From positions 1 through 32,606 of IMG/VR virus record IMGVR_UViG_3300045988_166454: a stretch of DNA of 32,606 bases; one strand, 5' to 3'. This stretch comes from a virus. Numbering within the stretch: the stretch's first letter is position 1; each line of letters opens with the position of its first letter. The position numbers and the translations under genes are program-made. A model generated the notes under the pieces. That model saw only the letters and a program-made list of their open reading frames with translations. It ran no database searches and was not told the DNA's origin. Below, piece by piece: positions 1 through 32,606 of this stretch.

Positions 1-186
1 ATGCTCGAATACGACGGCCCGGACGTAGAGGGCGCAGTCGCTGCGCTTGTCGAGCACAAGCGAGTTAATCAAGATTGGATTGACCGTCTCGCTGCTTTTA
101 ATGACGAGTATGCCGGAGCTTTTGAGCTTGAACTCGAAGAACTCCGCGCGGGCTTTGCAGCTCAAAATGCCGCTGCTGCTGCATAG
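1..186 (+). CDS. 3' part of a small acidic protein (candidate immunity protein for the upstream MuF-toxin); the 5' part is 32456..32606
   Basis: The ORF runs to the window edge. The same 55 nt occur at the window end inside ORF 32456.., giving ~93 aa when the contig is circularised. It lies immediately downstream of the toxin-like C-terminus. Confidence 0.55.
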   Translation: MLEYDGPDVEGAVAALVEHKRVNQDWIDRLAAFNDEYAGAFELELEELRAGFAAQNAAAAA

Positions 187-208
187 CTAACTGAACCAAC
201 CCTATAAA

Positions 209-236
209 CCCCACCGCGACTTGCGAGTGGGGTTTT
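209..236 (+). terminator. Intrinsic terminator-like hairpin plus T-run
   Basis: ccccaccgcg-actt-gcgagtgggg (one bulge) followed by tttt, 23 nt after the stop at 186. Confidence 0.5.
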
Positions 237-244
237 CTCATGCC

Positions 245-272
245 ACCCGCACCTGCATAGGAGCGGGTTTTC
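245..272 (+). terminator. Second, weaker terminator-like hairpin in tandem
   Basis: acccgc / gcgggt 6-bp stem with a 12-nt loop, followed by ttttc. Confidence 0.35.
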
Positions 273-301: not shown

Positions 302-904
302 ATGTTCGTAGGAACCACAGCCCAAGGTCCTGCTGATGAAAAGACTGTCGAAGCTGCGCAGGCAGCTGCCGACGCTACTGAATCCACGCAGGCTACCGAC
401 TCTCAGGAAGCCGCGAAGCCGGAGGCCGAGGCAGAAGCACCGGCAGAAGGCGCCGAAGCTCCCGAAGACTGGAAGTCACACGCTCGCCAGTGGGAGCGCC
501 GAGCAAAGGCAGACCGGAAGCAGGTCGAAGCTTTGACCGACGCGATCAACGGCAAGGATGTAACGATCGAAGATCTACGCACTCAAGTCGCAGATCTCCA
601 GCGCGCTGCCGAGCGCACCGAGAAGATCGCATCAGCCGCTTCCGAATACGGAGTGCCCGCGGAGCTGATCCGCGGAGATACGGACGAGGAGATCGCTGAA
701 TACGCGAAGCGCCTCGCCGAGTGGCGCGGCGAAGCCGCGGCACCTGTGGTTCCGAAGCTCTCAGACTCCGGCGCGGGGGCTTTCCCCGCGCGCCCGGCAA
801 TTCTGTCGATCGATGATCAGATTCTTGCCGCGCAGCAGACCGGAGATTTCAAGCTGTCGTCCCGACTCAAAGCCATCAAGCTCACACAGTTGGCACGCGG
901 CTAA
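302..904 (+). CDS. Capsid scaffolding protein
   Basis: Lies directly upstream of the major capsid gene. The protein is Ala/Glu-rich, helical and charged (WKSHARQWERRAKADRKQVEAL...). The ATG at 302 is preceded by GGAAGGA; the 221 start lacks an SD and overlaps the terminator hairpins. Confidence 0.7.
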   Translation: MFVGTTAQGPADEKTVEAAQAAADATESTQATDSQEAAKPEAEAEAPAEGAEAPEDWKSHARQWERRAKADRKQVEALTDAINGKDVTIEDLRTQVADLQRAAERTEKIASAASEYGVPAELIRGDTDEEIAEYAKRLAEWRGEAAAPVVPKLSDSGAGAFPARPAILSIDDQILAAQQTGDFKLSSRLKAIKLTQLARG

Positions 905-949
905 CCATCCCATCAACACCTTTCTTCTCTCTTTTAAGGAGTTCCTTTC

Positions 950-1915
950 ATGGCATCTATTACCGGAATCGCGACAACCTACAATTGTCTGAACTATGTC
1001 GGCGAGCTTTTCGCAGCGTCTCCCGAAGACACGCCTCTGCTCTCGGCGATCGGCGGACTAACCGGCGGCGAATCCGTCGGCGCATCCGTCATCACGTGGG
1101 AAGGCTACGATCTGCGTGACGCCGATGATTCCCGTCAGCGCACCGAAGGAGCCGACGCCACCGCTCTCGAGGCCCGCGCTCGCTTCTCAGCATCCAACGT
1201 CCTCGAAATCCATCAGGAAGCCGTCGCAGTCTCCTACACCAAGCTCGGAGCAACTCGACAGATCGGCTCCGGCACTTCGGCAGCACAGGTCACCGCAGGC
1301 ACCGTGCCCGCAGACGAGCTGCAATGGCAGATTGACCAGAAGCTGAAGGAAATCGCTCGAGACATCGAGAAGTCTTTCCTCACCGGCGTCTTCTCCCAGC
1401 CCACCACCAACGCGACGCCTCGAAAGACTCGCGGCCTCATCAACGCGGCAACCACCAATACCGCAACCTCGACCCACAAGGCCTCTCAGCTGACCGAGGA
1501 CGAAGTCCTCGACCTCATGCAGAAGGTGTGGACCGCTGGAGGTATTCAGGAGTCCGAGACGCGAACCATCATTGTCAACGCGCCTCTCAAGCGTGCGCTG
1601 TCCCGCATCTTCCTCAAGGATGCAGGCTACCGTCACTCCGATCGCAACGTGGGCGGCGTCAACCTCCAGACTTTCGAGACTGACTTCGGCACCTGCAACA
1701 TCATGCTCAACCGCTACATGCCACTCGACAAGCTTGTCATTGCTTCGCTCGAGCAGCTCAAACCGGCCTTCCTCGAGGTCCCCGGTAAGGGCCATCTCTT
1801 CGCCGAGACTCTCTCAAAGACCGGTGCAGCCGAGAAGGTCCAGCTGTACTGCGAGACCGGCTTGATCTACGGCAACGAGAAGGCCCACGGCGTCCTCACC
1901 GTGGCTCAGGGCTGA
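950..1915 (+). CDS. Major capsid protein
   Basis: 321 aa with a strong SD (aaggag). The N-terminus YNCLNYVGELFAASPEDTPLLSAIGG is typical of an actinophage major capsid family. Position after the scaffold gene fits. Confidence 0.8.
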   Translation: MASITGIATTYNCLNYVGELFAASPEDTPLLSAIGGLTGGESVGASVITWEGYDLRDADDSRQRTEGADATALEARARFSASNVLEIHQEAVAVSYTKLGATRQIGSGTSAAQVTAGTVPADELQWQIDQKLKEIARDIEKSFLTGVFSQPTTNATPRKTRGLINAATTNTATSTHKASQLTEDEVLDLMQKVWTAGGIQESETRTIIVNAPLKRALSRIFLKDAGYRHSDRNVGGVNLQTFETDFGTCNIMLNRYMPLDKLVIASLEQLKPAFLEVPGKGHLFAETLSKTGAAEKVQLYCETGLIYGNEKAHGVLTVAQG

Positions 1916-4910: not shown

Positions 4911-7900
4911 GTGGCTGAAGGCGCTGGCGCAGATCTCGGAACCGCATGGCTGAACGTCGTCCCAAGCTTCCAAGGCTTACAAAAGTCGATCGAGTCTGAG
5001 CTTGGCGCAGTCAACGTCAGCGGGGCTACCTCTTCGTGGGGCTCGCGTCTCGGCGCGAGCCTGACTCGCGGCATCGGTGGAGCGCTGGAGACGATCGGGA
5101 AGCTCGGCCTCGGTGCAACTGCTGCAGCCGTCGGCGGAATCGGCGCAGCCCTCGGAGCGTACATTCCGGAGGCGATCAAGGCCTCGGACGCCACAGACAA
5201 ATTCCAGAACACTCTGAAATTTGCTGGCGTTGATCCGGGGAAGATCAAGGATCTGACTGCTGCAGCGCAGACCTACGCTGACAAGACGATCTACGACCTG
5301 CAGGACATCCAGTCGATGACGTCGAAGTTGGCCGCGAATGGGGTCAAGGGCTTTGACAAGCTTGCCGAGGCTGCGGGCAACCTGACCGCGGCCGCGGGCG
5401 GCGGCAAGAATGAATTCGCGGCTTTCGGGTACGCGATGGTTCAGGTCAACGCGGCTGGCCGTTTGATGACTCAGGACTGGAATCAAATCGCAAACGCGAT
5501 CCCCGGTGGCGCGGGCAAGATCATGGCAGCGCTTAAGGACATGGGAGCCTACACCGGCGACTTCCGCGACGCGATGGCTAAAGGGAAGATCTCAGCCGAG
5601 GATTTCAACAAGGCGATCGCGCAGCTCGGCTTTGACGAGGTCGCTATCAAGGCAGCTCAATCGGCGACGACTTTCGAGGGCGCGTGGGGCAACCTCGAGG
5701 CCTCGCTGAATAAAGAGCTGACCGGCTCGCTGCGCGAGGTCAAGAAGCCGATGACCGAGCTGATCAACGCGGTCGCCGATGGTCTCGTCCCGCAGCTGGG
5801 GGAGAAGCTTGCTCCTGCAGCGCAGAGCGCTGCGGGCTGGATCCAGCGTCTCGCTGACTCGGTCAAGAGCGGCGAGACCAATATCAAGTCCCTTAAGGGG
5901 CAGCTTGAGGCCGTCACTGGCGGTTTCGGGGCGATGCTCGCGGCTGGCGCGGGGTTGAAGAACTTCCAGCAAATCGCGGGATTCTTCGGAGGCCTCGACG
6001 GGGAACTCGGCAAAAGCGCGGGATCGATCGGGGACTTCGCCAAGGGGATCCCTGACGCGGCCAAGACTCTTGGCTCTCTGAAGAATCTCCCCGGCGAAGT
6101 GACCGGCGCGTTCGGGCAGATGTCCAAGCGCGTCACCGCAGCTCGCTTTGAGCTGACCGGCGTCTCTGATGGCTTCTTCGACACGCTTTTTGGAGGCACG
6201 CGCCTCGGCTCCGCGCTCACAGCGGCTAATGGGAAACTGGCCTCCGGCATGGGAGTCTTGAAGACAACCGTGATGCGCTCAGCTGCGACGACAGGCTTGG
6301 CTTTCGACACAGTGGCCGCGCGGATGTCTCCGGCGGTCTCTCGTATCGGTGGCGTCGCCTCCTCGATCGGTGGGAAGATCATCGGCCCGATCGCGCCGAT
6401 CGGCGCTCGAGTGCGCGCGGCTTTCGCGCCTCTTGGCGCTGCTTTCGATGGTCTCGGCTCTAAGCTGTCGGGCCTCGCGCCGAAGGCGAGCCAGTCTCTC
6501 GGCAAGCTAGGCAGTCTCTTCGCGCCCGGTCGGATGCTGAAATTCCTCGCGTTTGGTGGTCTCGCTGCTGCTGCTTTCGCTGGTATCGGCGCGATCGTCC
6601 AGCAGGGCGGAGTGGAGCTGGTCGCCCAGATCGGTAAGACTCTGCAGGGCCTGCCAGGGCAGATCGCGCTTTATGGTGACAAGATCGCTCAGGCCCTTCC
6701 CGAGGCGCTTGCCACGGGCACGAATGTCATCACGATGGTCATTAATGCCATCACGCAGTCGATGCCGCAGCTGTCTAACGCTTTCGGGAAGATCGTCCCG
6801 GCCCTCGTCAAGGGCCTCTCTGACGCGCTCCCCGTGCTCCTGCCAGCGGTCGCTCAGATGATCACAGCGATCACGACAGCGCTTGTGGAGAATGCTCCGA
6901 TGTTGATCGAGTCGGGCCTCCAGCTCTTGCAGGGCCTCGTCGATGGGATCTTCGCAGCCCTCCCGGTGCTGATCGCAGCTCTCCCTCAGATCATCCAAAC
7001 CTTCATGGATGGATTTCTGCAGGCCCTGCCGCGAATTCTGGAGATGGGCACGCAGCTGCTCCAATCGATCATCGACGGGATCTTGCAGACTCTGCCTGCG
7101 CTGATCGCGATGCTTCCCCAGATCATCACGACAGTGATCAACGGTTTGGTGCAAGCGTTGCCGCAGATCATTCAGGCAGGCGTCGGCATGCTGAATGCGC
7201 TGATTAATGGTCTGATTCAGGCGATCCCGATGTTGATCGAGGCACTGCCGACGATCATTACGACGGTAGTGGACACTCTGCTCGCTAATCTTCCGATGAT
7301 TATTGAAGCTGGTATCCAGCTCCTGATCGGCGTTATCACCGGCCTCGTACAAGCGATCCCTCAATTGATCGCGATGCTCCCGCAGATCATCGTCACGATC
7401 GTCACGACCCTCGTGCAGAATATCCCGAAGATCATCACCGCGGGTATTCAGATCCTCGTCGGACTGGTCACGGGCATCGTGCAGGCGATTCCCCAGATCG
7501 GCAGCGCGATCGCCCAAGTCGGCTCGAGCATCCTCTCCGCTGTCGCGGGATTCCCTCGGATGCTTTTCGAGTCCGGAAAGAAGATCATCTCCGGCTTGAT
7601 CGACGGTATTAAATCGATGTTCTCAAGCGCGAAGAATGCAGTCTCCGGCCTCCTCTCCGGCATCCGTAACCTCTTCCCCTTCTCGCCCGCTAAGGAAGGC
7701 CCTTTCTCCGGAAAGCAATGGACACTCTATTCCGGCATGTCGATCGCAGAAGCGCTCGCGGACGGTATGCAGCGACGAGGCCACCTCTTCAAGGAAGCTG
7801 TCGCCGAGACCCTCGCTGAGGGGCAGGCACAGATTCGAGACCTCGAAGCCGGTCAGCTCAATGCCGTCGGTGCGTATCGTCGGGCTTCCATGATGTCGGA

Positions 7901-16189: not shown

Positions 16190-16412
16190 AGCGCCCCCGA
16201 TGCGCCCCCAAGTTTTTCTCTGTGTGTATTTGTGCAGGTCAGAGAGCCTAGCGGTGCGTTTCCCCCATCCTCCGCGATACGTCCCCGAGATCCGTTGAGA
16301 TCCCGGGGTTTTTCCTTTGTTTGCAACGGTTTTGGGCTGTGGGTATTGAAACCGATATATACCGATTGGTACGCTTGGGGGCGGTAAAAACGCCCCCAAT
16401 ACGCCCCCACCA
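16190..16412. other. Candidate attP region (arm-type repeat field upstream of int)
   Basis: Five copies of CGCCCCC(A/G)A-like motifs at ~16193, 16203, 16377 (inverted), 16391 and 16402 flank a ~160-bp non-coding core next to the integrase gene. Confidence 0.4.
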
Positions 16413-16428: not shown

Positions 16429-17574
16429 ATGCCAAAGAAACTGCCCCCCGGTATCGAATGGGATGAGACCCGCGCAAAGTATCGAGCGACCGTTCACGAG
16501 TCGGGGAAACGATACCGTCTTGGGCGCTTCGATACTTTGATGGATGCGAAAGCTGCTCTCGCGATCGCGCGCGCCGACGTCGCTAGGGGGATCTTCGTGC
16601 CTCCATCGGCGAGGCGTGCGGAAGCGAAGCGCGAGGCCGAGGAGGCGTCTCGCGCGCAGACCACCGTCGAAGAAGTTGCAGAAGACTGGCTCACCGATTT
16701 TGAGAGGCAGGTAGATTCTGGGCAGCGGAAGCCTGCGACGCTTCGGGAGTATAGGAGCGTGCTGTCGGTACATGTCCTACCTAGAATCGGCAGCATGCCA
16801 GTGCGCGAGGTCGCGTCTAGGGATATTCAGCGCGTGGCCGATCGCGCAGGCAGCACGAGGACGCGCGCCAAAATCGTCGCTTGCATGAGGCGTCTCTTTA
16901 ATTACGCAGTAGAGCGCGAAATCGTCGCTGCGTCTCCTGTGCGAGTCTCAGCTCCGAAAATCAAAGGCAGTAGCCTCGACGTCGGGAAAATAGCCTCGCC
17001 GCATCAGGTTGCTGCCCTGGCTGCAGCCATGCCCGGCCCTCTCCGGCTCTCGGTGCTCCTCGCGGCGTGGTGCTCGCTACGCCAGGGCGAAGCACTCGGC
17101 CTCCAGCGCAGAGACATCATTGGGCTAGAATCTGGATCCCCGCGTCTGCGCGTCGAGCGTCAGTGGAATCAGAAGGCGGTCCCTCCGGGCTATACGACAC
17201 CCAAAAGCGGTGCAGCCCGCGAGGTCACGATCCCCACAGCCCTAGTCCCTGTGATCCGTGACCATCTCGAAATCTACGTCGCAGCGGACCGGGACGCTCC
17301 TGTCTTCCCCTCGCCGATCGAGCCGGGAAAGCCGATCTCACAGACGAATCACAATAAAGCGTGGGCTGCAGCGCGCGTCGCTGCGGGCCTGCCGTCTTTT
17401 CGCTTCCACGATCTACGACATACCGGCCTCACTCTCTACGCACAGCAGGGAGCTACTCTCGCCGAGATCATGGAGCGCGGAGGCCACAGTGACGTTGAAG
17501 TGGCTATGAGGTACCAGCATGCAGCGGAAGACAGAGCGCGGCGCCTCGCCGACAGCCTGCCAGTCGAGGTCTAA
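16429..17574 (+). CDS. int: Tyrosine recombinase / phage integrase
   Basis: 381 aa. C-terminal catalytic motifs LRQGEALGL (Arg), HDLRHTG (H-x-x-R) and GHSDVEVAMRYQH (Tyr). Confidence 0.9.
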   Translation: MPKKLPPGIEWDETRAKYRATVHESGKRYRLGRFDTLMDAKAALAIARADVARGIFVPPSARRAEAKREAEEASRAQTTVEEVAEDWLTDFERQVDSGQRKPATLREYRSVLSVHVLPRIGSMPVREVASRDIQRVADRAGSTRTRAKIVACMRRLFNYAVEREIVAASPVRVSAPKIKGSSLDVGKIASPHQVAALAAAMPGPLRLSVLLAAWCSLRQGEALGLQRRDIIGLESGSPRLRVERQWNQKAVPPGYTTPKSGAAREVTIPTALVPVIRDHLEIYVAADRDAPVFPSPIEPGKPISQTNHNKAWAAARVAAGLPSFRFHDLRHTGLTLYAQQGATLAEIMERGGHSDVEVAMRYQHAAEDRARRLADSLPVEV

Positions 17575-25212: not shown

Positions 25213-25416
25213 ATGGATTTTCAGTCGTGGGCTGAGCTGCGCGAGTCTTTGCGCGAGGCTTTGGATGCTTTGGAGACTGCGAAGGAATTGATTCCTTGGG
25301 AGGATTCGCACCTTTGCCCGGAGCGCGTGTCGCTGCGGTTGCGCAGTGCATCGGGGCAAGTCAGAGAGGCGTTCGCGCTTGTCGGCGATGTCCTTAAGGG
25401 AGGCGATGCAGCATGA
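25213..25416 (+). CDS. Hypothetical 67-aa helical protein
   Basis: ATG after gagaggaa. ATGA overlap with the methyltransferase start. Confidence 0.45.
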   Translation: MDFQSWAELRESLREALDALETAKELIPWEDSHLCPERVSLRLRSASGQVREAFALVGDVLKGGDAA

Positions 25417-27038
25417 TTCCAGTGGTCGATCTTTTCGCGGGCGCTGGCGGTCTGACTGAGGGATTTGCGTCGTTGGTTGACGCCGATGGCCTGCCGGTAT
25501 TCCAGCCGGTCATGTCGGTTGAAAAAGACCCGGATGCGTGTGAGACTCTGCGTCTGCGCGCGTTCCTCAGCCGAATCGCTTCTGCGGAGCCAGGGCTACC
25601 GTGGGAGTATGAGCAGTTTTTACGCGATCGCGATCCGCGAGCGCTGGATTGCTTGAAGAAGCGTTTCCCGAGTGCGTGGACTGGTGCTCGCTGCGAGGTC
25701 GTCGAAGCGGAGCTGGGGGATGCTGATCCGGTTTTGATTGAGATGGCTCGGATGCGGGTCGACGCCGCATCCCCGTCTGGGGTGTGGGTGTTGGCCGGTG
25801 GCCCTCCGTGTCAGGCGTATTCGACTGCTGGCCGGTCTCGTCGGAAGCATGATCCGTCGTATGCGGACGATCCTCGGCTTCGGTTGTACAAGTCGTTTAT
25901 GAAGTTTGTGCATATGCTTCGGCCTCCGGCTGTTGTCTTCGAGAATGTCGTGGGCATCTTGTCGGCGAAGGTCGACGGGGAGTCTGTGTTTTCGCGGATT
26001 GTTCATGATTTCAGGAGCGCTGGTTATAGCGTTCGTTCGGTTGTTGATCCGTGCCCGGCGACGTCGCGTGATTACATCGTCGAGTCGGAAAAGTATGGAA
26101 TCCCGCAGGCTCGTCATCGCGTGATTCTTCTTGCTGTTCGTCGTGGGCGTGGTTTGCATCCGGGGGTCTTGCGTGAACGCGAGAGTGCGACGGTGCGTGA
26201 TGCTTTGGTTGGTTTGCCGAAGCTCCATGGGGTTGTCAGTTATCCGCAGGGGACGTGTCTTCCTCGCTTCGAGGAGTGGAAGAAGCTTGCGCCTGAGCCG
26301 ATCGCGAAGATTGTCAGGGACGCGATGATCGCTCCGTATGCGATCTTGTCGGAAGCGAATGAGATTGTTCGCGGCCAGGGCAAGCTTTCCGGATGGTACC
26401 GAGGCAAGCTTGGTGGCTCGAAGGCCCTTGAGGGGCACGCGGCTCGTACAGTGCGCACGGTAGATATGGAGCGGTATATGTTTGCCGCTGCTTTCGCGCA
26501 GGTCAAGGGCAGGTCGCCTCGGCTCGAGGAAATGCCTCGGTGCTTGTGGCCGAATCACGCGAACCTCGATGACATCGACGGGGATTCGAGGCCAGCCTTC
26601 AATGACCGCTTTTACGTGCAGGCGTGGGGTAAACCATCGTCGACCGTGACTGCTCATATCGCTAAGAGCGGGCATCATTTTATCCATCCGGATCCTCGGC
26701 AGCGCAGGAGTCTGACGCTTCGGGAGGCTGCGCGCCTCCAGACCTTCCCTGATGATTTCGTATTTATGGGGACTAAGACTGCTCAGTTTCGGCAGGTCGG
26801 GAATGCTGTGCCTCCGCTGCTCGCGCAGCAGGTCGCGCAGGTCGTCGCGAAGACCCTCGGCGTTGACGCCTTCGGCTACTTCGACAGCCTCGAGGAAGAA
26901 GATGGCGGGGAGGATGAGGAAGCGCCGAAGCTCCTTGGAGATACATTCTTCGATGCAATCTTCGAGTTCGCAGACAGTATCAATGGCATGCTCGGGAAAG
27001 CGGCTGATGCTCTTGACAAACTGGGTGCACCGCGCTAG
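25413..27038 (+). CDS. DNA (cytosine-5)-methyltransferase, orphan
   Basis: Motif I DLFAGAGGL, motif IV GGPPCQAYS, motif VI FENV, and the C-terminal RSLTLREAARLQTFPDDF...QVGNAVPP. Confidence 0.9.
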   Translation: MIPVVDLFAGAGGLTEGFASLVDADGLPVFQPVMSVEKDPDACETLRLRAFLSRIASAEPGLPWEYEQFLRDRDPRALDCLKKRFPSAWTGARCEVVEAELGDADPVLIEMARMRVDAASPSGVWVLAGGPPCQAYSTAGRSRRKHDPSYADDPRLRLYKSFMKFVHMLRPPAVVFENVVGILSAKVDGESVFSRIVHDFRSAGYSVRSVVDPCPATSRDYIVESEKYGIPQARHRVILLAVRRGRGLHPGVLRERESATVRDALVGLPKLHGVVSYPQGTCLPRFEEWKKLAPEPIAKIVRDAMIAPYAILSEANEIVRGQGKLSGWYRGKLGGSKALEGHAARTVRTVDMERYMFAAAFAQVKGRSPRLEEMPRCLWPNHANLDDIDGDSRPAFNDRFYVQAWGKPSSTVTAHIAKSGHHFIHPDPRQRRSLTLREAARLQTFPDDFVFMGTKTAQFRQVGNAVPPLLAQQVAQVVAKTLGVDAFGYFDSLEEEDGGEDEEAPKLLGDTFFDAIFEFADSINGMLGKAADALDKLGAPR

Positions 27039-27858: not shown

Positions 27859-28149
27859 TTGGCGAAGAAGAAAAAGACAGACGATCCTAAGCCTGCTTTT
27901 GATCCTCAAGAAGCGCGCCTCCGTCTCCTCGAAACGACCCTCATGTCGATCGAATATGCCGACGCGGGTCAGCGCGCGTCTTTGGTGCGAGAGGCCAGGG
28001 CACTGATCACCGATATTGCGGGAGTGCAGAAACCACAGGTAGAAGCGGAATCGACGGAGGAGGGCAGCGCGGTTGTCAACTTCCAAGCTCGATTGGCGCA
28101 ACAGCGATCAGGATCCTCGGCTCCGCGTCGCCGCCGATCGTCGGGCTAA
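27859..28149 (+). CDS. Terminase small subunit (putative)
   Basis: 96 aa with a TTG start. Basic N- and C-termini. Position between HNH and the large terminase. Confidence 0.5.
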   Translation: MAKKKKTDDPKPAFDPQEARLRLLETTLMSIEYADAGQRASLVREARALITDIAGVQKPQVEAESTEEGSAVVNFQARLAQQRSGSSAPRRRRSSG

Positions 28150-29593
28150 AAGCTTCGGTCCTTTGGCCGGGGATTTCGCCTCGCAATTTGGGCTGACTCC
28201 CGATGCGTGGCAGGATCTAGTGCTCGAGGATTGGCTCGCTGCAAATGGCCGCGATGAATGGAAACACCCGATCGCAGGGCTTTCCCTGTCTCGTCAAAAT
28301 GGCAAGAACGCGCTCCTCGAGATGCGTGAGCTTTTCGGCCTCGTCCTCCTCGGTGAGAACATCTTGCACTCAGCCCATGAGGTTAAGACAGCTCAAGCCC
28401 ATTACCGACGCTTCAAGGAATTCTTCGGCGTCAAAGCCAATGATGAGAATGCTCGTTATCCGGAGCTTAATGCGATGGTCGAGCAGGTGCGAAACGTTAA
28501 CGGGCAAGAGGCAATCATCCTCAAGACCGATCCTGAGAAGGGCTGGCACGGGGGAAGCCTCCGAGTCATCGCGCGCTCCAAGTCCTCGGGCCGTGGTTTT
28601 ACTGCCGACCTCATCGTCTTAGACGAGGCGCAGGAACTCACCGAGGATGCGCTAGAAGCTTTGACGTCGACAGGCTCTGCCGGTCATCTCGGGAATTCGC
28701 AGGTCATCTACACGGGTACTGTGCCCGGGCCTAATGCTAATGGGGCGATCTTCGCTCGCATCCGAGACCAAGCACTCTCCGACCATCCCGGCGCGATGTG
28801 CTGGCACGAATGGAGTCCCGACCCAGACGCTCCGGTGAATCTCGACGACGTGGAGCTGTGGAAAGCCACTAATCCCGGCTTTGTCGCAGGCCGAATCAAA
28901 AAAGCTTTCATCGAACTCGAGCGGCAAACACTCTCAGACGAGGGCTTTGCTCGCGAGCGTTTGGGCATGTGGCCTGCGCACGCGGGCGCGTCGCGCGCGA
29001 TCGACCCGACCACATGGACAGTGTCCACTGCCGACGCTCCGACAGATGGCATCCGCAGTTTCGCGGTTGCTTTCAGCGCCGACGGCAAGCGGCAGGCCCT
29101 CGCGGGCGCGCTTAAGACTGGCAAGGGCTTGGATACGAAATTCCACATCAACGTCATCGATACCTATACAGGCGCAACCGATGACGGCGTCTCCGCTGTC
29201 GCCTCGTGGCTCGCCGAGCGTAAAGACCGAGCCGCGCAAATCAATCTTGTCGGCGGCTCTGGAGCGCTTGCGCTCGCGGATGCTCTCGAGGCCCGCGGCG
29301 TCTCCAAACGCCTTGTCCACATCATGACGACCAAAGAGTATTTCCAATCCTGCTCCTTGCTCTTTGAGGGCTTGCGGGATGGGCGGATTACTCATCCGGA
29401 GGGCGACCCAGAAGATGCGCTGAATTCCTCAGTGGCCGTTTGCGATAAGAAAATTCGTTCGCGCGATGGCTCGTGGGGCTGGGAATCTTCCACTCCAGAC
29501 GGCGACGATACGCCTCTCGAAGCGGCATCTGCAGCCGTCCTAGCAGCAAAGACAACGAAACGACGTCCCGGAAAGAAAGCGAGGGCACTTTGA
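28073..29593 (+). CDS. Terminase large subunit
   Basis: Walker-A-like SRQNGKNALLE, Walker-B LIVLDEAQEL, and a nuclease half. The TTG at 28073 has SD ggaggaggg, but the start is uncertain (a TTG at 28163 is the alternative). Confidence 0.85.
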   Translation: MSTSKLDWRNSDQDPRLRVAADRRAKSFGPLAGDFASQFGLTPDAWQDLVLEDWLAANGRDEWKHPIAGLSLSRQNGKNALLEMRELFGLVLLGENILHSAHEVKTAQAHYRRFKEFFGVKANDENARYPELNAMVEQVRNVNGQEAIILKTDPEKGWHGGSLRVIARSKSSGRGFTADLIVLDEAQELTEDALEALTSTGSAGHLGNSQVIYTGTVPGPNANGAIFARIRDQALSDHPGAMCWHEWSPDPDAPVNLDDVELWKATNPGFVAGRIKKAFIELERQTLSDEGFARERLGMWPAHAGASRAIDPTTWTVSTADAPTDGIRSFAVAFSADGKRQALAGALKTGKGLDTKFHINVIDTYTGATDDGVSAVASWLAERKDRAAQINLVGGSGALALADALEARGVSKRLVHIMTTKEYFQSCSLLFEGLRDGRITHPEGDPEDALNSSVAVCDKKIRSRDGSWGWESSTPDGDDTPLEAASAAVLAAKTTKRRPGKKARAL

Positions 29594-31224
29594 CCGCGAA
29601 GAAATTCATGATCGCGACGCCAGTCGCTTTCCCCACACCAAACGTCCTAGGGCTCACGGGTCCCGAGCTTGAGGCCCTCGGCCAGCTGATCGAGCTTTGG
29701 CGAGTCAAGCAACCACGGAACCGCTTGCGACAGGCCTATCTTGACGGGATTGTCCGTCCGGACAACTTGAATATTGCTGTGCCCGACGAGATGGTCGAGC
29801 AGCTCGGAGCCGTCATCGGATGGCCTCGGAAAGTTGTCTTTGGCCTCTCAGACCTCCTCATCTGGGACGGAGTCACCGCTGCAGGCGGAGAAGAAAATCC
29901 CTTCGGGATCAACGACCTGTTGGCCGAGACGTCTTTCGATCTGGAAATCGCGCAGACGATTCCTTCTAGCCTCACGCACAGCGTCGCTTTCCTGACCCTC
30001 CGTCAAGGCGTAGGACCCGGCGAACCTCCCGTGATCATCCAAGGTCACTCCGCAGACTGGGCGACAGGCCTGTGGGATCGGGTACGTCGTCGGCTTTCCT
30101 ATGGTCTGACGATTGATGATGTCGATGACGCTGGGCGACCAACACGCATGACCTTATATACCGTCGATTCGACCTACGTCCTCGTGCCCTTCCCTGCGGG
30201 GCATTGGGAGGTTGTGCATGCCGAGCTACACGGCATCGGCGCACCGATGATGGAGGCTCTGCCTTTCGAGCCGTCTCTCGATCGACCTCTGGGGCGCTCG
30301 CGGATTTCCCGCGACGTCATGAGCATCACCCAGCGGGCAATGCGTACCGTGCTGCGTGAGGAGCTGGCGACTGAGCTTTTCACTGCTCCGGGGATCCTCC
30401 TCTCCGGCGTTGACTCCGATCTCATCGATGATTTGCGATCGTGGGACTGGAAGCTGGGAACCGTCAAGACGATCTCCAACGGCGAGGAACCCGAGGGGCC
30501 GAAGGTGACTGTCCTTCCTCAGCAGTCGTCTCAGCCTTTCACTGAACAGATGCGCGCCTTGGCGACCGAACTGGCAGGCGTGTCTTGCCTCCCTGTCTCC
30601 TCCCTTGGTGTCGTGCAGGATAATCCATCCTCGGCTGAGGCTTTGTACGCGGCCAAAGAGGAATTGGTCATCAAGGCCAAGAATGCGCAGCGCGTCTACG
30701 ACGGCGCACTCAACCGCATCTATATGCATGCAGTGATGCTGCGTGATGGCCTAGACGAGGCACCCGATGGGATCCGCACTTTGGCAACGCGGTGGGGTGA
30801 TCCCGCGCATCCGTCGATCGTCTCCCAGTCAGACGCGATTGTGAAGCAAGTCGCTGCGATGCCCTGGCTCGCATCTTCCCCAGTGATCCTCGAGGAGCTT
30901 GGCTACAGCTCATCGCAAATCGCACGCCTCATGTCCGACAAGCGCCGAGCCGAGGCATCGGGCCTCCTCGAGCGCCTCCAAAGCTCGCGGCCAGCGCAGA
31001 CGAGTGAAGCGCCTGCGGTCGAGGCTCCTGCTCCCGTCTCGGGAGGACTGACAACCGAGCAAGCTAAATCAGCCTTCGACGCTCTCGGCGTCGCTGTGCG
31101 TGCAGGCGTCGATCCGAATTCGGCTCTTGAGGTCCTTGGGATCCCCGGCGTGAAGCTTACCGGCGCAGTGCCTGTCTCGCTTCGTCTTCCCGAGGCGGAC
31201 ACGAAGATGCTGGAAGAAAAGTAG
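29590..31224 (+). CDS. Portal protein (SPP1 gp6-like)
   Basis: ~545 aa directly after the large terminase gene. TTGA overlap; the start is uncertain (29590 TTG or 29608 ATG). Confidence 0.8.
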   Translation: MTAKKFMIATPVAFPTPNVLGLTGPELEALGQLIELWRVKQPRNRLRQAYLDGIVRPDNLNIAVPDEMVEQLGAVIGWPRKVVFGLSDLLIWDGVTAAGGEENPFGINDLLAETSFDLEIAQTIPSSLTHSVAFLTLRQGVGPGEPPVIIQGHSADWATGLWDRVRRRLSYGLTIDDVDDAGRPTRMTLYTVDSTYVLVPFPAGHWEVVHAELHGIGAPMMEALPFEPSLDRPLGRSRISRDVMSITQRAMRTVLREELATELFTAPGILLSGVDSDLIDDLRSWDWKLGTVKTISNGEEPEGPKVTVLPQQSSQPFTEQMRALATELAGVSCLPVSSLGVVQDNPSSAEALYAAKEELVIKAKNAQRVYDGALNRIYMHAVMLRDGLDEAPDGIRTLATRWGDPAHPSIVSQSDAIVKQVAAMPWLASSPVILEELGYSSSQIARLMSDKRRAEASGLLERLQSSRPAQTSEAPAVEAPAPVSGGLTTEQAKSAFDALGVAVRAGVDPNSALEVLGIPGVKLTGAVPVSLRLPEADTKMLEEK

Positions 31225-31247
31225 AAAAATTTTAGGGGTGGTGGCGG

Positions 31248-32441
31248 GTGGATATCGGGGATGTGAAAAAGCTGGCCGCTGCCAATCGTGAGGCTGCTAG
31301 GATCGCGTCCGATCGTGTGGGGCAGCTTTGGGAAAGTCTGGAGGCTCTCGATACAGATACTCTCGGCGAGACACTGCGAGAGCTTTATCCCCGTCTTGTC
31401 GAAGAACATGCGGAAATGGCTGCCTCGGCTGCTGTCGAGTGGTATGAGGACGCGCGTACGGCAGCTGGCATCACCGCGCAGTATTCTCCGGAGATCCCCG
31501 CGAACCTCATTGACTATCCCAAGACGACGCGCGTAATCGAAGAGGCGATCGCGGCGATCGACCAGCGAGGCCGAGCGATAGCGGTGAAGATCCTCCAGCA
31601 ACGCGCTAAGCAGCTCGTAACTAGCGCGGGTCGGGAGACAGGGGCTTCGCTTGCCCGTCGTGATCCATCTGAACCGCGATACGCTCGTGTGCCGACAGGT
31701 GCGACGACGTGCGCGTGGTGCATCATGTGGGCAGGCCGAGGATTCATCTACAAGAACGAGGAAACGGCACGATTTACACGGTCGCACAGCGATTGCGACT
31801 GCCAGATCGTGCCATCGTGGTCGAGCAACCCGCTGATTCGAGGATATAACCAGAGCGGCTACGAGGCGATGTACAAGGCTGCTAAAGAAGACCTCCTTTT
31901 GGAGGGTGCTCTTGGCGATGAAAAAAGCATCGCTGCGCGTATACGCATGCTCTTCGCGAAAGAAGCCAGCGACGGGCATCCTGTCCCTAACGCTTCTAGA
32001 GATGGAACTCTCCAACGGCATACTCTAGAAGCAGACCGTAAGAGCGCAATAGCAGCGCTTCAACGGAAACCGAAAGACAGGGAAAAGCGGCTCATCCCTC
32101 CGCGCGCTATGACCCAAGCACCGCAAGAGTGGCCGGAAGACTTACCTGAAATTCGGGCAATGACCTTGCGTCACATCCTTTATGGCACAAAGGGCGGCGG
32201 AGGGCACTTGCACGGATACGGGTGGAGGTTTGACGGAAGCGAATTCCCCAAGTCGTGGGACGAAACGCATATCCTGCAAGCGGCTGAAGAGCTGCTGCGA
32301 TCGGGAATAACACCAACCGGGCCGAAGGGCGCCAAACTCGTAGGAGAGCACGACGGAATCAAGATCGCAGTCGTCTACTCCTACGACGGAGTTAAGCGCG
32401 GCAAAATTAAGAGTATCTATCCAATCAGAGCGACTAGATAG
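31248..32441 (+). CDS. MuF/SPP1-gp7-like head morphogenesis protein fused to a C-terminal EndoU-like toxin domain
   Basis: MuF signature TGATTCAWCIMWAGRGFIY...HSDCDCQIVPSW (aa ~150-191). The C-terminal ~95 aa read HILYGTKGGGGHLHGYGW...SEFPKSWDETHIL...IKIAVVY...IKSIYPI. Confidence 0.75.
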   Translation: MDIGDVKKLAAANREAARIASDRVGQLWESLEALDTDTLGETLRELYPRLVEEHAEMAASAAVEWYEDARTAAGITAQYSPEIPANLIDYPKTTRVIEEAIAAIDQRGRAIAVKILQQRAKQLVTSAGRETGASLARRDPSEPRYARVPTGATTCAWCIMWAGRGFIYKNEETARFTRSHSDCDCQIVPSWSSNPLIRGYNQSGYEAMYKAAKEDLLLEGALGDEKSIAARIRMLFAKEASDGHPVPNASRDGTLQRHTLEADRKSAIAALQRKPKDREKRLIPPRAMTQAPQEWPEDLPEIRAMTLRHILYGTKGGGGHLHGYGWRFDGSEFPKSWDETHILQAAEELLRSGITPTGPKGAKLVGEHDGIKIAVVYSYDGVKRGKIKSIYPIRATR

Positions 32442-32455
32442 GGTATACTTCGTCT

Positions 32456-32606
32456 ATGGAATCGCGTGACACCCCAACAAAGTTTGTCCTCGACGTGGTC
32501 GCGCTTTTGGAAGCGTTAGACGACCGCGAATATATTCCTGTCTTCTTAGAGATGCTCGAATACGACGGCCCGGACGTAGAGGGCGCAGTCGCTGCGCTTG
32601 TCGAGC
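32456..32606 (+). CDS. 5' part of the candidate immunity gene (continues at 1..186)
   Basis: ATG 14 nt after the toxin stop. The ORF is open to the window end, and the sequence overlap with 1..55 proves continuity. Confidence 0.55.
   Translation, partial: MESRDTPTKFVLDVVALLEALDDREYIPVFLEMLEYDGPDVEGAVAALVE
32551..32606 (+). repeat. Terminal overlap identical to the window start (circular-assembly signature)
   Basis: atgctcgaatacgacggcccggacgtagagggcgcagtcgctgcgcttgtcgagc is present at both ends. Confidence 0.9.

What the first reader, a model, noticed from the sequence alone, without database searches (positions are those of the whole stretch)
31248..32606. Virion MuF protein carries an EndoU-like toxin warhead, with a candidate immunity gene that wraps the circular junction
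The 397-aa ORF after portal has the MuF/SPP1-gp7 core (…TGATTCAWCIMWAGRGFIYKNEE…HSDCDCQIVPSW). After a ~100-aa linker it ends in LRHILYGTKGGGGHLHGYGWRFDGSEFPKSWDETHILQAAEELL…GIKIAVVYSYDGVKRGKIKSIYPI. That pattern (HIL-x-G…GGGH, EFP-x-xW, terminal strands ending YP) is what I remember for the bacterial EndoU RNase toxin domain at CdiA, Rhs and MafB C-termini. Fourteen nt downstream a ~93-aa acidic ORF starts at 32456 and finishes at 186 after circularisation, which is the canonical immunity-gene position. The last ~300 nt of the toxin gene use rare codons (tta, ata, aga, agg, gga) that are uncommon in the neighbouring structural genes, as expected for a swapped CT/immunity cassette. MuF-toxin fusions are a described class. 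This particular payload/immunity pair is uncharacterised, as is its role (injected effector, kin discrimination or abortive infection).
Basis: partly seen in the sequence, partly recalled or inferred. Interest (0 to 1): 0.75.

Follow-up and report, generated by a model that had tools for sequence, protein, structure and literature searches.

The report
Phage head protein with RNase toxin
A temperate Actinomyces phage carries a head-associated (MuF-type) protein ending in an EndoU-family RNase toxin with a matching immunity gene; this class is already known, but many host genomes keep only the immunity gene in decayed prophages.

Summary
ORF 31248-32441 (397 aa), directly after the portal gene, has a VG15 domain (Pfam E 7e-47). 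This matches the "MuF4" family of Jamet 2017. The C-terminus matches Pfam EndoU_bacteria above its curated cut-off. H309 and H320 are invariant in 57 relatives. A 93-aa acidic ORF starts 14 nt downstream and wraps the junction of a circular 32,551-bp contig.

Comparative data support a toxin/immunity pair:
- Sister phages are 96% identical (nt) across the MuF domain and ~86% in the flanks.
- From aa ~258 to 12 nt past the small ORF's stop they carry a diverged cassette (toxin 46% aa identity, small ORF 41%).
- Six of six VG15-EndoU loci have a related 91-105-aa ORF at this position. Two phages with short MuF genes have none.
- Twenty-one Actinomyces/Pauljensenia species genomes keep only the immunity gene, in three alleles. 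It sits in prophage remnants at tRNA-Ser or next to the tmRNA gene. Pairwise dN/dS is about 0.2-0.4 (range to 0.86).

Limits: fold searches did not confirm an EndoU fold, only weak RNase-toxin-like hits. Toxicity, neutralisation and virion packaging are untested.

Verdict: a new member of a known class (MuF-EndoU was listed in 2017). The orphan-immunity pattern appears not to have been described.

The parts
31248..32441 (+). Gene for the 397-aa MuF4/VG15-EndoU fusion protein (GTG start, TAG stop), directly downstream of the portal gene
   Evidence: ORF list. Pfam VG15 E 6.8e-47 and EndoU_bacteria 27.1 bits. PHROG phrog_193. Full-length homologue in Bifidobacterium phage PMBT6, E 5e-54.
31260..31883 (+). 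VG15 / MuF4-type N-terminal domain (aa 5-212), with an invariant C155-x2-C158 ... H180-x2-C183-x-C185 motif
   Evidence: Pfam. Alignment A6 invariant columns. BLASTP against the N-terminal 250 aa of mycobacteriophage Angel gp4, the MuF4 seed, E 1e-5.
31884..32129 (+). Linker (aa 213-294). The left boundary of the swapped cassette lies inside it, at about nt 32017 (aa 257).
   Evidence: Domain limits. Identity drop.
32130..32438 (+). C-terminal EndoU_bacteria toxin domain (aa 295-397). Codons: H309 at 32172-32174, H320 at 32205-32207, S389 at 32412-32414.
   Evidence: Pfam PF14436 31.2 bits when scanned alone. H309 and H320 invariant, S/T389 conserved in 98% of 57 relatives. AlphaFold2 model pLDDT 88.9.
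32456..32606 (+). 5' part of the candidate immunity gene (93 aa, pI 4.08). The ORF continues at window position 56.
   Evidence: Homologues listed. AlphaFold2 five-helix bundle, pLDDT 91.
1..186 (+). 3' part of the candidate immunity gene. Positions 1-55 duplicate 32552-32606; the stop codon is at 184-186.
   Evidence: Terminal overlap and translation.
32018..32606 (+). Left part of the 731-nt C-terminal-domain-plus-immunity cassette that is replaced in sister phages L015-L017. It continues to window position 197.
   Evidence: blastn: 96% identity for 31243-32017, no match from 32018 to 197, homology resumes at 198. Amino-acid identity 96.9% / 58% / 46%, immunity protein 41%.
206..268 (+). Two tandem terminator-like hairpins (206-235 and 245-268, each followed by a U-run) directly after the immunity gene
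   Evidence: RNA fold -36.5 kcal/mol, z -4.5. Terminator scan.
29473..31224 (+). Portal gene (context; likely start near 29590)
   Evidence: phrog_104 E 2e-105.
28073..29593 (+). Terminase large subunit gene (context)
   Evidence: phrog_9 E 4e-47.
302..1915 (+). Scaffolding gene (302-904) and major capsid gene (950-1915), which follow the immunity gene
   Evidence: PHROGs.
16261..16275 (+). attP core TCCCCCATCCTCCGC, identical to the 3' end of host tRNA-Ser(GGA)
16429..17574 (+). Tyrosine integrase gene. Its 5' part is fused to the last 30 toxin codons in the chromosomal remnants.
   Evidence: phrog_1 E 3e-60. Chimeric proteins P0006-P0013.

Best explanation
This is a polymorphic toxin/immunity module inside the head-morphogenesis operon of a temperate siphovirus-type phage of oral Actinomyces/Pauljensenia. 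The phage integrates at tRNA-Ser(GGA).

The N-terminal VG15 (MuF4) domain is the portal-adjacent 'MuF' module. By analogy with SPP1 gp7, it would place one to a few copies of the protein inside the capsid so that they leave with the DNA. This step is inferred.

The C-terminal ~100 aa form a metal-independent EndoU_bacteria RNase. H309 and H320 would act as the general acid/base pair and S389 in the last strand would complete the site. Family membership is shown here; the chemistry is inferred from the family.

The 93-aa acidic five-helix protein encoded 14 nt downstream most likely binds the basic toxin domain (pI 9.3) and blocks it. That would protect the producing cell during assembly, and protect lysogens or any cell that expresses the gene. 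The genetic linkage and co-variation are shown; binding is inferred.

The toxin domain and immunity gene are exchanged together as a 731-nt cassette between otherwise near-identical phages (shown). Host chromosomes that have lost the phage and the toxin's catalytic part keep the immunity gene intact (shown). This fits continued exposure to the virion-borne toxin, which is an inference.
For: Toxin domain:
- Pfam VG15 E 6.8e-47 and EndoU_bacteria 27.1/31.2 bits against a cut-off of 25.3.
- 116 relatives at E<=1e-3 in 1.84 billion representative proteins. Of the 80 with a full-length domain, 79 have it at the C-terminus. Many are ~385-430-aa VG15 fusions; others carry WXG100 or long N-termini.
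- H309 and H320 are invariant and S/T389 is conserved in 98%. This matches the Tox-EndoU signature 'H, H, [SNT], [SNT]' of Zhang 2012.

Gene context:
- Gene order is terL-portal-MuF-small ORF-scaffold-MCP. The same order occurs in Bifidobacterium phage PMBT6 and in loci L026-L028.

Cassette swap:
- 96% nt identity up to 32017, no nucleotide match from 32018 to 197, and ~86% after that.
- Amino-acid identity is 97% in the N-domain, 46% in the toxin domain and 41% in the immunity protein.
- Deviant codon usage and GC3 in the cassette.

Immunity candidate:
- Homologous small ORFs sit downstream of distant VG15-EndoU genes (hhalign E 1.8e-4 against the PMBT6 ORF; alignment).
- No such ORF exists in the short-MuF phages B22 and Spartoi.

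Orphan immunity genes:
- At least three different toxin truncation points (nt 32269, 32352, 32396), all 3' of both His codons, each followed by an intact immunity ORF.
- All 21 species-representative genomes with an immunity relative lack the MuF N-domain, portal gene and major capsid gene within 6 kb.
- Four of those genomes carry two immunity alleles side by side.
- Pairwise dN/dS is mostly 0.2-0.4 (range up to 0.86); Fisher p 1e-3 and 3e-6 for two representative pairs.

Literature:
- The MuF-EndoU class is described in PMC5576092. PF14436 is cited as a demonstrated RNase in PMC9970974.
Against:
- Foldseek found no significant PDB or BFVD match for the confident toxin-domain model. The best hits (E 0.05-0.2) are other BECR-type RNase toxins (BrnT, HigB2, CdiA-CT EC3006). 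They do not include 5HKQ or XendoU.
- A profile search against PDB sequences found nothing.
- The Pfam alignment covers only profile positions 69-128. The His motif is placed through my own alignment with classical family members.
- The Lys before S/T-EFP in classical members (GKSEFP) is Gly in this subfamily.
- The immunity protein has no Pfam, PHROG or PADLOC hit and no fold match.
- Pfam Phage_Mu_F and an hhalign comparison with SPP1 gp7 do not link the N-domain to classical MuF. Packaging is therefore argued by gene position and by Jamet's HMM-HMM result only.
- dN/dS of about 0.3 indicates only moderate constraint.
Confidence: 0.73

Rival explanations
1. The C-terminal RNase is a phage-benefit enzyme rather than an interbacterial or kin-discrimination toxin. 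It would be injected to shut off the host, process RNA or counter a defence. The small protein would be its assembly-time inhibitor or chaperone.
For: - The GYGW-type subfamily is found almost only fused to VG15, in a fixed position of the head operon, across Actinobacteria phages.
- It is conserved together with a related small ORF.
- This pattern suggests a stable phage function rather than free shuffling among secretion systems.
Against: - Closely related phages carry sharply diverged toxin/immunity alleles.
- Hosts keep orphan immunity genes, sometimes two alleles together. This is the pattern of antagonistic toxin-immunity diversification.
- The two readings are not mutually exclusive.
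Confidence: 0.15
2. The 93-aa ORF is not an immunity gene. It would be an unrelated small head-assembly or moron gene that merely sits next to the toxin and hitch-hikes in recombination.
For: No family, fold or defence-database match for the protein. No complex model could be made.
Against: - The cassette boundaries enclose exactly the toxin domain plus this ORF.
- Its divergence tracks that of the toxin domain.
- Homologues follow 6/6 VG15-EndoU genes and are missing from 2/2 short-MuF phages.
- It is the one gene kept intact in at least four differently deleted prophage remnants and at the tmRNA site.
Confidence: 0.07
3. The C-terminal domain is a catalytically dead or structural remnant of an EndoU-like fold with no toxic activity.
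For: The fold search was inconclusive. The Lys of the classical GKSEFP motif is not conserved.
Against: - Both His and the Ser/Thr are conserved across 57 diverse relatives.
- Every chromosomal remnant of allele 1 has lost the His-containing part, as expected if an intact domain is harmful without control.
- A linked inhibitor-like gene is conserved alongside it.
Confidence: 0.05

Closest known systems
MuF polymorphic toxins of temperate phages (Zhang et al. 2012, PMC3482391; Jamet et al. 2017, PMC5576092). Specifically the MuF4-EndoU toxin reported from a Bifidobacterium bifidum prophage.
   Same: - The gene lies immediately after the portal gene.
- The N-domain is of the MuF4 type, homologous to mycobacteriophage Angel gp4.
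- The C-terminal extension of about 110 aa belongs to EndoU_bacteria.
- A small ORF follows it.
- The host phage is temperate and infects an actinobacterium.
   Different: - Host genus and sequence differ: 31% identity to the PMBT6 homologue.
- Shown here and not found in the papers searched: two or three co-diverged toxin/immunity alleles in one phage lineage, a conserved immunity family for this toxin subfamily, and orphan immunity genes in host chromosomes.
Bacterial EndoU toxins at the C-termini of MafB, CdiA (STECO31, PDB 5HKQ), Rhs and WXG100/LXG proteins (Pfam PF14436)
   Same: - Pfam family membership.
- The H...H...[ST] signature.
- C-terminal position in a multidomain carrier protein.
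- An immunity gene lies directly downstream.
   Different: - The carrier is a phage head protein, not a secretion-system substrate.
- This subfamily has GYGW in place of GTG-x-PGK and lacks the Lys before S/T-EFP.
- Neither sequence nor fold search linked it to 5HKQ.
Apk2 MuF toxins with IapK/Aph1 immunity proteins (Streptococcus pneumoniae, Mannheimia and Pasteurella prophages; PMC12226406)
   Same: MuF N-domain carrying a toxic C-terminal enzyme. An allele-specific, protein-binding immunity gene lies directly downstream.
   Different: The payload there is a (p)ppApp synthetase, not an RNase. The MuF subfamily differs. That system has experimental support, which this one lacks.
Orphan immunity genes and orphan CT/immunity cassettes of CDI, Rhs and T6SS systems (for example the acquired interbacterial defence clusters of Bacteroidales)
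   Same: - Immunity genes are retained without a functional toxin, sometimes as arrays of several alleles.
- A toxin-domain-only cassette with immunity occurs (L018).
- The genes are under purifying selection.
   Different: Here the cognate toxin is virion-borne. The orphans lie in decayed prophages at the phage's own attachment sites (tRNA-Ser, tmRNA), not next to a secretion locus.

Membership tests
Pfam PF14436 EndoU_bacteria (Tox-EndoU) | Profile HMM score above the curated gathering cut-off | tested here: met
   27.1 bits for the whole protein and 31.2 bits for the C-terminal domain alone, against a cut-off of 25.3. 48 of 57 aligned relatives also match, best E 1e-15. Only profile positions 69-128 are aligned.
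Pfam PF14436 EndoU_bacteria (Tox-EndoU) | Conserved catalytic signature: two N-proximal His plus Ser/Thr in the last strand (Zhang 2012: H, H, [SNT], [SNT]) | tested here: met
   H309 and H320 are invariant and S/T389 is conserved in 98% of 57 sequences. Signature taken from PMC3482391. The second [SNT], before EFP, is only partly conserved.
Pfam PF14436 EndoU_bacteria (Tox-EndoU) | EndoU / BECR alpha+beta fold | tested here: inconclusive
   The AlphaFold2 model is confident (pLDDT 88.9). Foldseek gave no hit at E<=1e-3. The top weak hits are the BECR RNase toxins BrnT, HigB2 and CdiA-CT EC3006/Kp342. 5HKQ and 2C1W were not recovered. The PDB sequence-profile search was empty.
Pfam PF14436 EndoU_bacteria (Tox-EndoU) | Metal-independent endoribonuclease activity and toxicity | not testable with these tools
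   Needs expression and RNA cleavage assays.
MuF superfamily (classical: Pfam Phage_Mu_F PF04233, SPP1 gp7, Mu GpF) | Match to the Phage_Mu_F profile, or detectable homology to SPP1 gp7 | tested here: not met
   No PF04233 hit at E<=1. hhalign of the N-domain alignment A6 against SPP1 gp7 gave probability 1.3%. Only a short shared H..DC.C-type motif is visible.
MuF4 family sensu Jamet 2017 (equivalent to Pfam VG15 PF25310) | Homology to the N-terminal 250 aa of mycobacteriophage Angel gp4, and a gene immediately downstream of the portal gene | tested here: met
   BLASTP E 1e-5 with the Cys/His motif aligned. VG15 E 6.8e-47. The portal gene ends at 31224 and this gene starts at 31248. Jamet's link of MuF4 to MuF1/2 by HMM-HMM comparison is taken from PMC5576092 and was not reproduced here.
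MuF4 family sensu Jamet 2017 | Incorporation into the capsid and release with the DNA | not testable with these tools
   Needs virion proteomics. Inferred from SPP1 gp7 as cited in PMC5576092.
Polymorphic toxin system | Conserved N-terminal carrier with a variable C-terminal toxin among close relatives | tested here: met
   Window against L015: 96.9% aa identity over aa 1-257 and 46% over aa 294-397. The nucleotide match ends at 32017.
Polymorphic toxin system | Small immunity gene directly downstream that co-varies with the toxin | tested here: met
   The immunity proteins are 41% identical between alleles and the cassette ends 12 nt after the immunity stop codon. Related ORFs follow 6/6 VG15-EndoU genes and 0/2 short-MuF genes.
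Polymorphic toxin system | Specific neutralisation of the toxin by the cognate immunity protein | not testable with these tools
Needs co-expression and binding assays.
Known immunity protein families (Pfam Imm*, SUKH, etc.) | Profile or fold match | tested here: not met
   No Pfam hit at E<=1, no PHROG hit and no PADLOC hit. The five-helix model (pLDDT 91) has no PDB match better than E 2.4.

The most novel reading that the evidence does not exclude
Host Actinomyces/Pauljensenia chromosomes keep orphan immunity genes against a virion-delivered MuF-EndoU toxin, and selection maintains them. There are three alleles, and two can sit side by side. They lie in stripped-down prophage remnants at the phage's own attachment sites.

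This would be the first population-genomic sign that MuF toxins really reach and harm recipient cells. The attB-adjacent remnants include a 4.66-kb att-flanked island carrying only the toxin domain plus immunity. They may also act as a reservoir from which integrating phages swap toxin/immunity cassettes.
Probability: 0.35. Interest if true: 0.7.

Novelty: new member of a known kind. Interest (0 to 1): 0.5.

Why it matters
MuF toxins were predicted in 2012 and 2017, but what they do for the phage or its lysogen is still unknown. Only ADP-ribosyltransferase and (p)ppApp-synthetase payloads have been tested experimentally.

This locus offers a compact, testable EndoU example with natural controls:
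- two or three co-diverged toxin/immunity alleles on near-identical phage backbones;
- host strains that carry zero, one or two orphan immunity genes.

If those orphans protect cells, that would show that virion-borne toxins act on recipient cells in the oral microbiome. It would also show that bacteria counter them the way they counter T6SS and CDI effectors. If not, this remains a well-annotated member of a known class.

Tried and rejected
- phmmer of the toxin domain, and hmmsearch of the 57-sequence profile, against PDB sequences: only chance hits or none.
- Foldseek of the toxin-domain model against PDB and BFVD, and of the immunity model against PDB: nothing at E<=1e-3.
- The search for related loci with the toxin-domain alignment A1: no stretch was conserved enough to search with.
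- hhalign of the N-domain against SPP1 gp7: no signal. I do not claim classical MuF membership.
- PADLOC scan of both proteins: no hit.
- The sigma-70-type promoter scan found no site upstream of the immunity gene; its single match (32507-32536) lies inside the immunity ORF. The consensus also suits Actinobacteria poorly. Whether the immunity gene is expressed in lysogens is left open.
- The second immunity profile search listed only the two close allele groups among its best 120 of 736 hits. More distant immunity relatives had to be found through synteny instead.
- The PHROG label 'head maturation protease' for the N-domain: no protease domain was detected in this 397-aa protein. The label probably comes from longer fusion proteins such as Angel gp4.
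Full report
**The sequence.** The window ends with an exact 55-nt copy of its start, so it is a circular 32,551-bp contig. ORF 31248-32441 (+, GTG start, 397 aa) begins 24 nt after the portal gene. Its stop codon is followed after 14 nt by an ATG at 32456. That reading frame runs across the junction to a stop at 184-186. It encodes a 93-aa protein with pI 4.08. The surrounding genes are terminase large subunit, portal, this gene, the small ORF, scaffolding protein and major capsid protein (PHROGs). The genome also carries a tyrosine integrase (16429-17574).

**Domain identification.** Pfam finds VG15 (PF25310) over aa 5-212 at E 6.8e-47. It finds EndoU_bacteria (PF14436) over aa 331-393 at 27.1 bits, above the curated cut-off of 25.3. 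The C-terminal domain scanned alone scores 31.2 bits.

An exhaustive HMMER search of 1.84 billion representative proteins with aa 285-397 gave 116 hits at E<=1e-3. Of the 80 that contain the full domain, 79 have it at the C-terminus. Many are 385-430-aa VG15 fusions with the same architecture. Others carry WXG100 or long unrelated N-termini and score up to 1e-13 against PF14436.

In an alignment of 57 domains, H309 (RHILYG) and H320 (GGGH) are invariant. S/T389 (KSIYP) is conserved in 98%. F333, P334, W337 and G370 are at least 89% conserved. This matches the Tox-EndoU signature 'H, H, [SNT], [SNT]' of Zhang et al. 2012. 48 of the 57 members hit PF14436 on their own.

**Limits of the family assignment.**
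- The Pfam alignment covers only the second half of the profile, both here and in classical members.
- The subfamily fused to VG15 has GYGW where classical members have GTG-x-PGK. It lacks the Lys before S/T-EFP.
- An AlphaFold2 model of the domain is confident (pLDDT 88.9, pTM 0.83). Foldseek nevertheless found nothing at E<=1e-3 in PDB or BFVD. The best weak hits are the BECR-type RNase toxins BrnT, HigB2 and CdiA-CT EC3006/Kp342. They do not include the EndoU structures 5HKQ or 2C1W.
- Sequence-profile searches against PDB were empty.
- Sequence-family membership is therefore met, and fold confirmation is inconclusive.

**The N-domain.** Pfam Phage_Mu_F is not hit at E<=1. hhalign against SPP1 gp7 gives no signal. 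The domain does align with the N-terminal 250 aa of mycobacteriophage Angel gp4 at E 1e-5, with the Cys/His motif in register. Angel gp4 is the seed of Jamet's MuF4 family. The gene also occupies the defining position after the portal gene. Jamet et al. linked MuF4 to MuF1/2 by HMM-HMM comparison. [quoted passage not shown] Bifidobacterium phage PMBT6 encodes a full-length homologue annotated as hypothetical (E 5e-54). The architecture is therefore already known.

**Evidence that the toxin domain and the small ORF form one functional cassette.** IMG/VR holds three near-identical phages (L012-L014) and three sister phages (L015-L017).

Against L015, nucleotide identity runs as follows:

| Window segment | nt identity |
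|---|---|
| Portal gene | 86% |
| 31243-32017 | 96% |
| 32018 to 197 | no blastn match |
| From 198 (12 nt after the small ORF's stop) | 86% |

At the protein level, aa 1-257 are 96.9% identical, aa 258-293 are 58%, the toxin domain is 46% and the small proteins are 41%. The cassette also has deviant codon usage. GC3 is 0.58 in the toxin domain and 0.51 in the small ORF, against 0.68 genome-wide.

Small ORFs of 95-105 aa directly follow the VG15-EndoU genes of PMBT6, L026, L027 and L028, overlapping them by 4 nt. The L026 protein is visibly homologous to the window protein. The PMBT6 protein matches the immunity profile by hhalign (E 1.8e-4, shared ML-D-DGP motif). Two phages with short VG15/MuF genes go straight from MuF to scaffold (Propionibacterium phage B22 and Rothia phage Spartoi). 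The immunity model is a confident five-helix bundle (pLDDT 91) with no PDB match. It has no Pfam, PHROG or PADLOC hit.

**Orphan immunity genes.** The 93-aa protein has 117 clusters of 71-99% identical relatives, named only as hypothetical proteins of Actinomyces spp.. The intact allele-1 toxin is almost absent from the same database.

The chromosomal copies lie between dnaX/recR and a xanthine permease gene, next to tRNA-Ser(GGA). The last 15 nt of that tRNA are identical to window 16261-16275, which is the attP core. These loci are decayed prophages of this family with different deletion end-points in the toxin gene: nt 32269, 32352 (fused in frame to integrase codon ~107) and 32396. All three lie 3' of both His codons, and all leave the immunity ORF intact.

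A scan of one genome per GTDB species found 21 species with an immunity relative. None has the MuF N-domain, a portal gene or a major capsid gene within 6 kb.
- Nine species carry allele 1.
- Five carry allele 2. Four of these also carry allele 1, as two intact convergent genes about 700 nt apart.
- Twelve carry a third allele (11 ORFs examined, 86 aa in nine of them) about 80 nt from the 3' end of the tmRNA gene. It is intact in 10 of 11.

Pairwise dN/dS is 0.22-0.43 between phage and orphan allele-1 copies. Its median is 0.32 (range 0.16-0.86) among allele-3 copies. Synonymous changes are significantly in excess (Fisher p 1e-3 and 3e-6 for two representative pairs).

In another set of contigs (L018-L021), a 4.66-kb island is bounded by two copies of the att core. 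It carries an intact integrase, ASCH and PIN_3 genes, and then a 149-aa ORF. The homology of that ORF to the allele-2 phage begins exactly at the toxin-domain boundary (WPQDLL), and it is followed by allele-2 immunity. This is a toxin-domain-plus-immunity cassette without the MuF carrier.

**Interpretation.** The best-supported reading is a MuF4-carried EndoU-family RNase toxin with a cognate, allele-specific protein inhibitor.

Shown here:
- family membership by sequence;
- conserved catalytic signature;
- synteny;
- cassette exchange;
- co-divergence of toxin domain and small ORF;
- correlation between the toxin domain and presence of the small ORF;
- retention of the immunity gene after toxin loss.

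Inferred:
- RNase chemistry, from the family (PF14436 is cited as a demonstrated RNase);
- capsid incorporation and ejection, from SPP1 gp7 as summarised by Jamet;
- direct binding by the immunity protein;
- the idea that orphan genes protect cells against incoming virions.

I found no paper linking MuF toxins with orphan immunity. The one paper in the search that holds both terms is a review I did not open. The 2017 paper does not use the word 'orphan'.

**Verdict.** The finding is a new member of a described class, so novelty is moderate. The population-level pattern of orphan immunity genes at the phage's attachment sites is the part worth following up.

Noticed in passing
window 16261-16275 (attP core) and 16429-17574 (integrase): The 15-nt sequence TCCCCCATCCTCCGC is identical to the 3' end of host tRNA-Ser(GGA). 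The phage is therefore temperate and targets that tRNA. Chromosomal remnants start their phage homology at window position 16253.
   Followed up: yes
L018 4405-9080 (also L019-L021): A 4.66-kb island is flanked by two copies of the att core. It carries an intact integrase (456 aa), an ASCH gene, a 501-aa PIN_3 gene, a 149-aa ORF holding only the EndoU toxin domain (both His present), allele-2 immunity (95 aa) and a 92-aa ORF. It could be a mobilisable mini-island, a satellite, a toxin-antitoxin-like module or a defence island.
   Followed up: partly
L030 5590-6910 (also L032, L033, L036): An immunity islet next to tRNA-Ser. It holds an integrase-N-terminus::last-30-aa-of-toxin chimeric ORF, then an intact allele-1 immunity gene (+) facing an intact allele-2 immunity gene (-). 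In the chimera the immunity gene sits behind the integrase upstream region, which might drive its expression.
   Followed up: partly
L039-L050, about 5990-6710 in each locus: A third immunity allele (86 aa, about 50% identical to alleles 1 and 2) lies alone about 80 nt from the 3' end of the tmRNA gene in 11-12 species representatives. It is intact in 10 of 11. Median pairwise dN/dS is 0.32.
   Followed up: partly
window 206-268: Two tandem terminator-like hairpins with U-runs sit directly after the immunity gene, in the middle of the head operon (fold z-score -4.5). They lie in the conserved right flank of the cassette and are also kept in the chromosomal remnants.
   Followed up: partly
window 31243-32017 versus L015: The MuF N-domain is 96% identical (nt) between the two phage lineages, while the portal, scaffold and capsid genes are about 86%. 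This suggests a recent recombination tract ending at the cassette boundary.
   Followed up: no
protein P0123 (metagenome contig, 92 aa): An immunity variant whose N-terminal half is allele 1 and whose C-terminal half resembles allele 3. It is an apparent recombinant between immunity alleles.
   Followed up: no
window 25413-27038: A 541-aa DNA methyltransferase gene (phrog_116, E 2e-59) lies upstream of the packaging genes.
   Followed up: no
window 1-55 and 32552-32606: An exact 55-nt terminal duplication, typical of a circular contig from a k=55 assembly graph. It says nothing about the physical ends of the virion DNA.
   Followed up: yes
A1 alignment, aa 282-300 of the toxin: A conserved proline-rich motif, (R/K)(L/I)PP-x6-P-x2-WP-x-DLP, precedes the catalytic helix in nearly all VG15-fused members and is missing in classical EndoU toxins. 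It might be a pre-toxin demarcation or processing motif. The L018 cassette begins just at WPQDLL.
   Followed up: no
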